Of a stretch of DNA of 64,000 bases, positions 22,038-25,802 are shown one piece after another; positions within the stretch are counted from its first letter, which is position 1, and every line of letters starts with the position of its first letter. The notes under the pieces were generated by a model. It worked only from the letters and a program-made list of their open reading frames with translations, did not search any database and was not told the DNA's origin. The stretch lies in the NCBI RefSeq assembly GCF_009914755.1, contig NC_060932.1. The stretch is one strand, 5' to 3'. The DNA comes from the human T2T-CHM13v2.0 reference genome, Homo sapiens. Both the position numbers and the translations under genes were made by a program.

Positions 22038-23391
22038 AAAGATAATAGTACAGTCAAGAACTTAAGAAAGAATCTTAAAGATTCTTTGTGTTGGTTCTGA
22101 TGCAAGTTTATAGGCAATTTTCTGGGCCTGTTCAGCCATCAATAAAATGAATACCTTCATGTCCATTATCAGAGGAAATCCACACGGCTTCTCCAAAGAT
22201 GCTTTCAAGGACACTTCTAAAACATTAATATAGACATATGAATGACAGAAATTAATCCTGCTGCTCCTTGTTGATTTTGAAGATGCACATGGAGGCAACA
22301 GTGGGCTGACTCTCAAGACCTGGACAATAAAACTGCTGTACCCTTAAAGCATACCGGGGAAGCCAACACATAATATGCTCATAGAAAATTTATGTTAAAT
22401 GAACAAATGAATGACTAATTTATCCTAGTTATACCATTTTTCCAAACCTAGATCTTTGGAACTAATACATATTCAAGGACAGAAACATGAATAAGATATG
22501 GTCTCACCCACAGCCATCATGAGAGAGAGTTTCATGTGGTACTTACCTGACGGTTCCGATGGTAACCACATGGATGGTCTTAAGGAGGGGCAGTGCCCTG
22601 GCAAAGAGGTCATTGAGAAGACCAAAACACAGGTATCCACGATGCACAAAAACCACACCTAGGATGCACCGTTTTTCCAAAGCCCACTTTCGCTTCCCAA
22701 CCCTGTCCTACATCCAATACCATACAAGACTCAGACAAGCAATGGAGTCCCTTAAGAAGGTGGAGGGCTCCTCACAAGTCCTATAAAAGCATCATCTACC
22801 TGCTGTTGCAAAGCTGCTGGCCTAGTATGAGGCAGAGCAAGTCTCCCTGGAAAATTGCATCAGCTTACTCTGACTTAGAGGACTTAATGCATTTTTACAA
22901 ATGGAAATAATAAACCCTCAGGAAATATTATGAAAATGAACCTGTAAACACTGAAATTGAATCTAATCATGAACAAGTCATAGCTTAGACTAATGAAGAA
23001 TAAATTATGCTGAAATACGAACAAAATTTGTCCTTCAGTCTGATGGGGAAAAGGTGTCAGTAGGAGGCAAAACCCACACATGACTTTGGACTACAAGATA
23101 TAATTTGATGAGCCACTGCAAAACTCATCTCTAAACAGACTTATTTGGCTGTAAGTATAGGTCAACCACTAGAGCTAGAAAATAATCAAACCATATAACC
23201 TTTGCAGGAGCTACATTTCTTGCTCAAAACCTTTCTCATTTTTTTCTCTCTTATTCACTCTTTTCTGCTCAGGAAGCATGTAGGTTTGCTAATTCCTTGG
23301 GATACATTTCATCCAGACTTTATGATCTATAGGTCACCATTTTTTCCCCAGTCATATTGCTGATAACAATTTTGAATTTTCAAACCAGGTC

Positions 23392-23575
23392 TTTTTTTTT
23401 TTTTTTTTAACCATTTGATGAGCTTTTATGAATGGATCCACCCATATAAACATCATAGCATTCAGAAAATAGAATATTTTCATCACTCCATAAAGCTCCT
23501 TTACAATGCTTTGCTGAAAATTTCATACCCCTCTTCCCTGCCTACCAGACAAACACTGAATGCATTACTTTTTCA
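23392..23575 (-). other. L1 3'-transduced segment with its own poly(A) tail
   Basis: Lies between the L1 tail (23576-23620) and a T17 tract (23392-23408), inside the TSD; minus-strand CATAAA at 23425-23430. Confidence 0.8.
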
Positions 23576-25307
23576 CTTTCTTTTTTATTATTATTATTAT
23601 TATTATTATTATTATTATACTTTAAGTTTTAGGGTACATGTGCACAATGTGCAGGTTAGTTACATATGTATACATGTGCCATGCTGGTGTGCTGCACCCA
23701 CTAACTCGTCATCTAGCATTAGGTATATCTCCCAGTGCTATCCCTCCCCCCTCCCCCCAACCCACAACAGTCCCCAGAGTGTGATGTTTCCCTTCCTGTG
23801 TCCATGTGTTCTCATTGTTCAATTCCCACCTATGAGTGAGAATATGCGGTGTTTGGTTTTTTGTTCTTGCGATAGTTTACTGAGAATGATGATTTCCAAT
23901 TTCATCCATGTCCCTACAAAGGACATGAACTCATCATTTTTATGGCTGCATAGTATTCCATGGTGTATATGTGCCACATTTTCTTAATCCAGTCTATCAT
24001 TGTTGGACATTTGGGTTGGTTCCAAGTCTTTGCTATTGTGAATAATGCCGCAATAAACATACGTGTGCATGTGTCTTTATAGCAGCATGATTTATAGTCC
24101 TTTGGGTATATACCCAGTAATGGGATGGCTGGGTCAAATGGTATTTCTAGTTCTAGATCCCTGAGGAATCACCACACTGACTTCCATAGTGGTTGAACTA
24201 GTTTACAGTCCCACCAACAGTGTAAAAGTGTTCCTATTTCTCCACATCCTCTCCAGCACCTGTTGTTTCCTGACTTTTTAATGATTGCCATTCTAACTGG
24301 TGTGAGATGGTATCTCATTGTGGTTTTGATTTGCGTTTCTTTGATGGCCAGTGATGGTGAGCATTTTTTCATGTGTTTTTTGGCTGCATAAATGTCTTCT
24401 TTTGAGAAGTGTCTGTTCATGTCCTTTGCCCACTTTTTGATGGGGTTGTTTGTTTTTTTCTTGTAAATTTGTTTGAATTCATTGTAGATTCTGGATATTA
24501 GCCCTTTGTCAGATGAGTAGGTTGCGAAAATTTTCTCCCATTTTGTAGGTTGCCTGTTCACTCTGATGGTAGTTTCTTTTGCTGTGCAGAAGCTCTTTAG
24601 TTTAATTAGATCCCATTTGTCAATTTTGGCTTTTGTTGCCATTGCTTTTGGTGTTTTAGACATGAAGTCCTTGCCCATGCCTATGTCCTGAATGGTAATG
24701 CCTAGGTTTTCTTCTAGGGTTTTTATGGTTTTAGGTCAAACGTTTAAGTCTTTAATCCATCTTGAATTGATTTTTGTATAAGGTGTAAGGAAGGGATCCA
24801 GTTTCAGCTTTCTACATATGGCTAGCCAGTTTTCCCAGCACCATTTATTAAATCGGGAATCCTTTCCCCATTGCTTGTTTTTCTCAGGTTTGTCAAAGAC
24901 CAGATAGTTGTAGATATGCAGCATTATTTCTGAGGGCTCTGTTCTGTTCCATTGATCTATATCTCTGTTTTGGTACCAGTACCATGCTGTTTTGGTTACT
25001 GTAGCCTTGTAGTATAGTTTGAAGTCAGGTAGCATGATGCCTCCAGCTTTGTTCTTTTAGCTCAGGATTGACTTGGCGATGCGGGCTCTTTTTTGGGGCC
25101 ATATGAACTTTAAGGTAGTTTTTTCCAATTCTGTGAAGAAAGGCATTGGTAGCTTAATGGGGATGGCATTGAATCTGTAAATTACCTTGGGCAGTATGGC
25201 CATTTTCACGATATTGATTCTTCCTACCCATGAGCATGGAATGTTCTTCCATTTGTTTGTATCCTCTTTTATTTCCTTGAGCAGTGGTTTGTAGTTCTCC
25301 TTGAAGA
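23576..25307 (-). mobile_element. 5'-truncated young L1 (L1PA2/L1PA3-like, non-Ta)
   Basis: ORFs 25057-25311, 24736-25035 and 24169-24678 match the L1 ORF2p C-terminus (…[16 protein letters not shown]…[18 protein letters not shown]). 3' UTR reads cccactaactcgtc (GAG, not the Ta ACA). TSD tcaaaccaggtcttt. Confidence 0.97.
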
Positions 25308-25802
25308 TCAAACCAGGTCTTTATTACTTTCTCATTACCACAACATCTTTTATTTCTACTTGAATTGCAGATTCCATTTTGTGACATCATCTCTTCGTCT
25401 AGTTGTTGGCATTATCTGAAATACATTGTCTTTTGTATCTTTGGCTGACCAGATTGTTAACTTTTAAACTTTATTCTGAAGAATTTGCTTCATTTATACA
25501 TTTCCCCCATCTGTATATTTAAGCTGAATGCTATCCATGCTGTCTACATTCGTCTAGTCTTTCACACTGAGAATTCAAGTTTCCAAAGAAAATTTGTCCA
25601 TACAGAGAGATACCTCATGTCATATATCCCTACCTTTAACCACACACCCATAGCCACACAGAGTATGACCTGTCTCCATTATATTGTTCATATCCTTGGT
25701 CCTGAACCACTCACCCCCACCCATCCTGAGCCATACCAATTAATTTTTGTGTAGATTTGTCCCTATGATCTTTCTGGTTTTTTCCTTCTCTTAATCCAGG
25801 CT

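What the first reader, a model, noticed from the sequence alone, without database searches (positions are those of the whole stretch)
23380..25322. Young L1 with a ~170-bp 3' transduction and two poly(A) tails
Seen: a perfect 15-bp TSD tcaaaccaggtcttt (23380-23394, 25308-25322) encloses the 1.7-kb L1PA2-like element and its (TTA)n tail, plus 23409-23575 and a second T17 tract. On the L1 strand a variant poly(A) signal CATAAA lies 16 nt before the second tail. Established: read-through of the weak L1 poly(A) signal mobilises downstream flank. Inference: the extra segment, itself resembling an old L1M 3' end, tags the source L1 elsewhere in the genome. Standard repeat annotation would probably mislabel it as a resident old L1M.
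Basis: partly seen in the sequence, partly recalled or inferred. Interest (0 to 1): 0.7.

Follow-up and report, generated by a model that had tools for sequence, protein, structure and literature searches.

The report
L1 copy tagging a vanished parent
A truncated LINE-1 jumping gene on chromosome 8 carries about 170 bases that match one spot on chromosome 6 where no young LINE-1 now sits, so it likely records a parent element since lost from this genome; such 'parentless' copies are a known kind of event.

Summary
Real, and a known kind of event. The 15-bp TSD, both tails and CATAAA are as described. The piece between the tails (23409-23582) has one other match in the genome, chr6:23,589,595-23,589,763 (95%). 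There it lies inside a resident old L1M-like element that continues on both sides, so chr6 is the donor. Instead the junction on chr6 is an intact endonuclease-type site (TT|AAGA), gap-free against three related sequences, and a U/GU-rich stretch follows the cleavage point. Best reading: read-through 3' transduction from an L1PA2-age source L1 that sat at chr6:23,589,763/4 and was likely never fixed. This is the 'parentless transduction' class described in dogs and primates. A related full-length L1 on chr12 shows the same pattern, with an empty chr15 donor. Ape genomes could not be tested.

The parts
25308..25322 (-). Target-site duplication, 5' copy on the L1 strand; preceded by ...GTAAT, so the chr8 target reads AT|AAAG, a near-consensus endonuclease site
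23618..25307 (-). 5'-truncated L1, L1PA2-type (end of ORF2 with an in-frame stop, plus 3'UTR); no inversion
   Evidence: 97.4-98.0% to 19 closest genomic copies, GAG diagnostic
23583..23617 (-). First tail (that of the source L1): (TAA)11 plus a few A's; forms the L1's own AATAAA at 23589-23584, which was read through
23409..23582 (-). Transduced piece, 174 bp; copy of chr6:23,589,763-23,589,595 (169 bp), part of a resident old L1M-like element there; 4 substitutions, one 4-bp indel, one extra T at the tail junction
23502..23505 (-). TGTA upstream-element motif (single occurrence; weak evidence)
   Evidence: (donor position 74), sequence
23425..23430 (-). Variant poly(A) signal CATAAA, 16 nt before the second tail; first of 10 tested hexamers downstream of the donor junction
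23392..23408 (-). Second poly(A) tail, A17 (14 outside the TSD); the donor has only A4 here, so most of it is untemplated
23380..23394 (-). Target-site duplication, 3' copy

Best explanation
This is one L1 insertion whose 174-bp extra piece is copied from chr6:23,589,595-23,589,763, where no young L1 is present, and it was likely made by read-through 3' transduction from an L1PA2-age source L1 that once sat at that chr6 site and was likely never fixed. Shown: single TSD, two tails, unique donor, donor embedded in an old L1M-like element, clean TT|AAGA junction, U/GU-rich sequence after the cleavage point, no source L1 and no siblings in CHM13. Inferred: a full-length L1 inserted on the minus strand at chr6:23,589,763/4; Pol II passed its weak AATAAA and was cleaved 15-16 nt after CATAAA at GGT/AAAA; the RNA was reverse-transcribed into the chr8 site and truncated after about 1.7 kb of L1; the chr8 copy persisted while the chr6 chromosome carrying the source was lost, about the time of the human-chimpanzee split or somewhat earlier.
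For: Unique donor: 2 of 2 candidates; two end-specific patterns each give 2 hits, 0 in reversed controls. Direction: one old-L1M profile domain runs across the chr6 junction, and 16 of 23 paralogs align on both sides; the chr8 flanks have no such match. No source: young L1s in chr6:23,575,100-23,613,800 are on the opposite strand, 13 and 18 kb away; the nearer one is a 1.64-kb fragment. Empty site: the junction lies inside a 36-40-bp segment that aligns without gaps to L009 (87.5%), to a second chr6 copy 1.36 kb away (84.6%) and to L057 (75%). EN-like sites make up 89 of 38,701 positions, 0.23%. After the cleavage point 18 of 30 nt are T, reached by 1.4% of local windows. GAG marks L1PA2 or older, and such elements are rarely polymorphic (PMC7026601 passages). 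7 private substitutions, 13 with singly shared ones, in 1,693 bp = 0.4-0.8%. High ILS and ancestral Ne of 198,000 (PMC12058530 passage). Same pattern at a second locus.
Against: The source L1 was not observed; its existence is inferred. No siblings support a productive source. The old-L1M profile aligns poorly at the junction (posterior 3-4), chr6 has about 50 nt more there than the median paralog (152 vs 102.5), and 7 of 23 paralogs do not span it; the clean-site claim rests on three short alignments. A clean empty site cannot separate 'never fixed' from precise excision or from ongoing polymorphism. CATAAA is a weak signal, and the extra T before the tail is not in the donor. Dating is loose: donor-copy divergence 4 of 165 (2.4%, 95% CI 0.7-6.2%). 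The EN-site frequency does not correct for a few bases of breakpoint ambiguity among A's.
Confidence: 0.7

Rival explanations
1. Same transduction, but the chr6 source L1 still segregates in some humans and CHM13 carries the empty allele.
For: This is the standard reading of parentless transductions in dogs and primates; non-reference sources are known in humans (PMC9311842 passages). CHM13 is one haplotype.
Against: GAG-type elements are rarely polymorphic; none of that type was found as non-reference in NA12878. The held part of the 1,019-genome MEI table (18,827 rows, file cut when stored) has no row at chr6:23.58-23.60 Mb or chr8:135.30 Mb; the missing part and Tables 19-20 were not seen.
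Confidence: 0.1
2. Same transduction, but the source L1 was fixed and later removed precisely by recombination between its TSDs (mechanism recalled, not from a call).
For: It would also leave a clean single-copy site, as seen.
Against: Precise excision is rare (recalled). The second clean empty donor (chr15) would need a second excision.
Confidence: 0.1
3. No source L1 ever sat on chr6: reverse transcription began on a polyadenylated chr6 transcript and switched template to an L1 RNA tail, or the two RNAs were ligated.
For: No L1 at the donor and no siblings. Template switching and RNA ligation chimeras exist (PMC13174262 passages).
Against: It does not predict an endonuclease-type site exactly at the donor junction (0.23% of positions), nor the same at chr15. 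The U6-type chimeras in the passages read put the non-L1 RNA 5' of the L1, the reverse of this order. No gene annotation for the chr6 site was available to me.
Confidence: 0.06
4. Two separate events: an orphan 174-bp retrocopy inserted first, and the L1 later landed at its 5' edge.
For: Two tails can arise from two insertions.
Against: The L1 has no TSD of its own: the longest suffix of its 5' flank found again after the first tail is 3 nt. It needs a TSD-less insertion at the exact base where chr6, not chr8, has the EN site.
Confidence: 0.02
5. The piece is a resident old L1M at chr8, or a small duplication unrelated to retrotransposition.
For: It matches an old-L1M profile.
Against: 95% identity to one locus against 74-76% to the other L1M copies that hit this part; the match ends exactly at the two tails; it lies inside the TSD; the chr8 flanks are not L1M.
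Confidence: 0.02

Closest known systems
Partnered L1 3' transduction (L1 + poly(A) + transduced flank + poly(A) inside one TSD), as catalogued in PMC12350158 and bioRxiv 10.1101/2021.07.12.451456
   Same: Same anatomy; 174 bp is near the 206-bp mean reported for polymorphic L1 transductions; interchromosomal.
   Different: Older (GAG-type) element; the transduced piece is itself old repeat, which pipelines that demand unique or unmasked sequence can discard (filters seen); no progenitor in the reference.
'Parentless' 3' transductions (Halo et al., PMC7980453: 17 of 18; PMC13141329: 24 of 27) and class 1 source loci of TIGER (PMC4862182)
   Same: The donor locus has no adjacent L1.
   Different: Those are dimorphic insertions whose parents are thought to still segregate. 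Here the element is L1PA2-age, so the parent is more likely extinct in humans; the empty endonuclease site is resolved to the base.
L1 chimeras by template switching or RNA ligation (PMC13174262)
   Same: L1 and non-L1 sequence in the same orientation inside one TSD.
   Different: Order reversed relative to U6-type chimeras; internal L1 tail retained; donor junction is an EN-type site.

Membership tests
L1 3' transduction | One TSD encloses L1 and extra sequence | tested here: met
   15-bp exact TSD; no separate TSD for the L1
L1 3' transduction | Two poly(A) tracts with the transduced piece between them | tested here: met
   (TAA)11+A and A17
L1 3' transduction | Transduced piece maps to another genomic locus | tested here: met
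   chr6:23,589,595-23,589,763, 95%, sole near-identical hit
L1 3' transduction | Poly(A) signal 10-30 nt before the second tail, downstream element at the donor | tested here: met
   CATAAA at 16 nt (variant, weak); T-rich stretch in the top 1.4% of local windows; function not assayed
L1 3' transduction | Full-length progenitor L1 directly upstream of the donor sequence | tested here: not met
   No same-strand young L1 in 38.7 kb; this places it in the parentless sub-class
Parentless 3' transduction | Donor sequence not adjacent to an L1 in the searched genome | tested here: met
   definition
Parentless 3' transduction | Parent present in other individuals or species | not testable with these tools
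   No other human or ape assemblies held; partial negative in a cut MEI table
L1PA2 subfamily | GAG at the 3'UTR diagnostic site (L1PA2 or older) | tested here: met
   meaning of GAG from PMC7026601
L1PA2 subfamily | Closest to the L1PA2 consensus rather than L1PA3 | not testable with these tools
   No repeat library; 1.5% (26 of 1,693) from the column majority of 19 relatives fits a young subfamily; PA2-vs-PA3 positions are recalled only
Old L1M (L1MC/MD/ME-type) 3' end, for the donor piece | Match to a named L1M consensus | tested here: inconclusive
   Member of a dispersed old family at 70-83% identity that also matches the young L1's ORF2 end/3'UTR; the name L1M and its subfamily are recalled

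The most novel reading that the evidence does not exclude
Old (L1PA2-age) 3' transductions form a base-resolution fossil map of active L1s that are extinct in humans. This one places a lost full-length L1 at chr6:23,589,763/4 (minus strand, TSD starting AAGAAAG), and a second traced here places one at chr15:60,109,306/7: 2 of 2 donors are clean empty endonuclease sites. If general, most ancestral source elements were never fixed, and a genome-wide count would measure how strongly active full-length L1s were purged in the human-ape ancestor.
Probability: 0.5. Interest if true: 0.55.

Novelty: new member of a known kind. Interest (0 to 1): 0.35.

Why it matters
The locus itself is intergenic, with no annotated gene within 100 kb, and is unlikely to have a function. 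Its value is as a record: it gives the exact base, strand and TSD start of a source L1 that the reference lacks, which can be looked up in pangenome and ape assemblies. It keeps an older state of the chr6 sequence (chr8 has 4 bp that chr6 lacks and old paralogs share). It also shows that a transduced piece made of old repeat can still be traced uniquely, a case that unique-sequence filters can drop. A specialist would find it a neat example rather than a surprise.

Tried and rejected
Sibling transductions: none with the piece itself, with 4 kb of donor downstream sequence (only 77-87% short repeat hits) or with two end patterns at 2-3 mismatches; the DNA search scores only its best candidates. 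None of the 19 closest L1 copies carries the piece in 1.5 kb of 3' flank. The neighbouring chr6 L1 at 23,574,676-23,576,318 as source through a later inversion: rejected; it is a 1.64-kb fragment on the other strand, its tail is not followed by the donor start, and the old element is continuous across the junction. The ~50 extra nt at the chr6 junction as a remnant of the source: rejected; it matches an old segment of the same family on both sides of the junction. Excess donor-copy divergence as a sign of a lost haplotype: not significant (P=0.14 against 1.2%). A larger survey of transductions among 38 related L1s was not done, so the base rate of empty donors rests on 2 cases. Szak 2003, Pickeral 2000, Macfarlane 2013 and the journal version of Hoyt et al. 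are not held; supplements of PMC9311842, PMC12058530 and PMC13192797 could not be read, nor the CHM13 transduction table of the Hoyt preprint, which may already list this locus in a low-confidence bin.

Full report
Observation. The structure is as reported. On the minus strand it reads: TSD (25322-25308), 5'-truncated L1 (25307-23618), first tail (TAA)11+A (23617-23583), extra piece (23582-23409), A17 (23408-23392), TSD (23394-23380). The TSD is exact over 15 bp and occurs only twice in the window; chance is about 2e-5, or 7e-4 without its T's. CATAAA ends 16 nt before the second tail. The L1 has no TSD of its own (3-nt best match), so L1 and extra piece arrived together.

Age. The L1 body is 97.4-98.0% identical to the 19 closest copies fetched (19 of the 39 other hits listed among 7,043 candidates, 40 scored). 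It differs from their column majority at 26 of 1,693 sites; 7 substitutions are private and 6 more are shared with one copy. It carries GAG at the 3'UTR diagnostic site, which marks L1PA2 or older (PMC7026601, passages). Private change of 0.4-0.8% suggests an insertion near the human-chimpanzee split, dated 5.5-6.3 Ma in PMC12058530 (passages); the conversion uses a recalled per-lineage divergence of about 0.6% and is an inference.

Donor. The extra piece has one other near-identical copy: chr6:23,589,595-23,589,763, minus strand, 95% (2 of 2 candidates), with 4 substitutions in 165 aligned bases and one 4-bp indel. Patterns from each end hit only chr6 and chr8, with 0 hits for reversed controls. 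The match starts at the end of the first tail and stops at the start of the second. On chr6 the piece is the middle of an old dispersed repeat: a profile built from 23 other copies (of 38 such hits listed) gives one domain across the junction (E 8e-60), and 16 of 23 copies align on both sides; 7 do not. The chr8 flanks do not match the profile. So chr6 is the donor. At the indel, chr8 resembles the old paralogs, so chr6 likely lost the 4 bp.

No source L1. In chr6:23,575,100-23,613,800 the only young L1s are on the plus strand, 13 kb and 18 kb away (96.6% and 91.8%); the nearer is a 1.64-kb fragment. The junction reads ...CATT|AAGAAAG..., matching the TT/AAAA endonuclease motif (motif quoted); such sites are 89 of 38,701 positions on that strand. 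chr6 has about 50 nt more than the median paralog around the junction (152 vs 102.5, range 55-141, 16 copies), which I first took for a possible remnant. That stretch aligns without gaps across the junction to L009 (35/40), to a second copy 1.36 kb away on chr6 (33/39) and to L057 (27/36), so it is old and nothing is added or missing at the junction: a clean empty site.

Poly(A) site. CATAAA is the first of 10 tested hexamers after the junction; no AATAAA or ATTAAA lies within 900 nt. The donor has GGT/AAAA at the cleavage point, then 18 T in 30 nt, reached by 1.4% of local windows (G+T 2.6%). The donor has only 4 A's, so the 17-A tail is mostly untemplated. One extra T before the chr8 tail is unexplained (a tail mutation or an older donor state).

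Mechanism. Shown: anatomy, unique donor, direction, empty EN-type site, poly(A) context. Inferred: a full-length L1 stood at chr6:23,589,763/4; transcription passed its AATAAA, ended at CATAAA, and the RNA was inserted on chr8 by target-primed reverse transcription with 5' truncation. I put transduction from a now-absent source at about 0.9. Within that, never fixed in the human line 0.7, still polymorphic 0.1, precisely excised 0.1. Template switching (0.06) does not predict the EN site and has the reverse order in the chimeras read in PMC13174262 (passages). The held, cut part of the 1,019-genome MEI table (18,827 rows) lists no event at either locus, which is weak evidence against present-day polymorphism.

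Second case. One of the 19 relatives (L024/L037, chr12, full length about 6.2 kb, 17-bp TSD) carries its own 52-bp transduction. It maps at 52/52 to chr15:60,109,255-60,109,306, where the junction is TT|AAAG and 9.6 kb upstream holds only a 70%-identical opposite-strand L1. So 2 of 2 traced donors are empty; two cases give no rate.

What is known. 3' transduction is established (Hoyt preprint, passages: 183 highest-confidence L1 3' events in CHM13; PMC12350158, passages and one cut supplement; PMC9311842, passages). Donors without an adjacent L1 are known as 'parentless' (PMC7980453, passages: 17 of 18; PMC13141329, passages: only 3 of 27 had an adjacent L1) and as class 1 source loci in primates (PMC4862182, passages and section 14). 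PMC13192797 was read as passages only. Seven topic searches returned no listing on extinct sources of L1PA2-age human transductions, but I did not search full text for these coordinates, and Szak 2003, Pickeral 2000, Macfarlane 2013 and several supplements, including the CHM13 transduction table, were not available; the locus may already be catalogued.

Verdict. A real, well-resolved new member of a known kind. Interest 0.35.

Noticed in passing
L037 / G000:C12: about 72,610,190-72,616,530 (minus) and L067-L068 / G000:C15:60,109,255-60,109,306: Full-length (~6.2 kb) young L1 with a 17-bp TSD and its own 52-bp 3' transduction (ATTAAA signal, A14 tail). The chr15 donor is 100% identical, has no young L1 upstream in 9.6 kb and a TT|AAAG junction: a second parentless case. 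This L1 shares 10 of the chr8 copy's 26 minority substitutions, the most among 19.
   Followed up: partly
L003:4747-4785 and 6104-6142 (G000:C6 about 23,589,746-785 and 23,591,103-141): The old chr6 element holds a ~40-bp segment twice, 1.36 kb apart (84.6%): an ancient internal duplication or templated insertion that supplied the EN site.
   Followed up: partly
G000:C6:23,574,676-23,576,318 (+) and 23,607,916-23,608,720 (+): Two truncated young-ish L1 fragments near the donor, opposite strand; no clear TSD found for the first.
   Followed up: partly
window 4-500, 43885-44463, 55957-56434, 59067-59289: Resident old L1M-like fragments by the paralog profile; the 43885-44463 region hits on both strands, which may be an inversion or two adjacent pieces.
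   Followed up: no
window 23103-23113 and 23413-23423: An 11-bp exact repeat between the chr8 flank and the end of the transduced piece, 310 bp apart; probably chance.
   Followed up: no
L016 (G000:C10:134,453,568-134,458,261): The closest L1 relative (98.0%) has a 5' inversion of about 0.9 kb, typical of twin priming.
   Followed up: no
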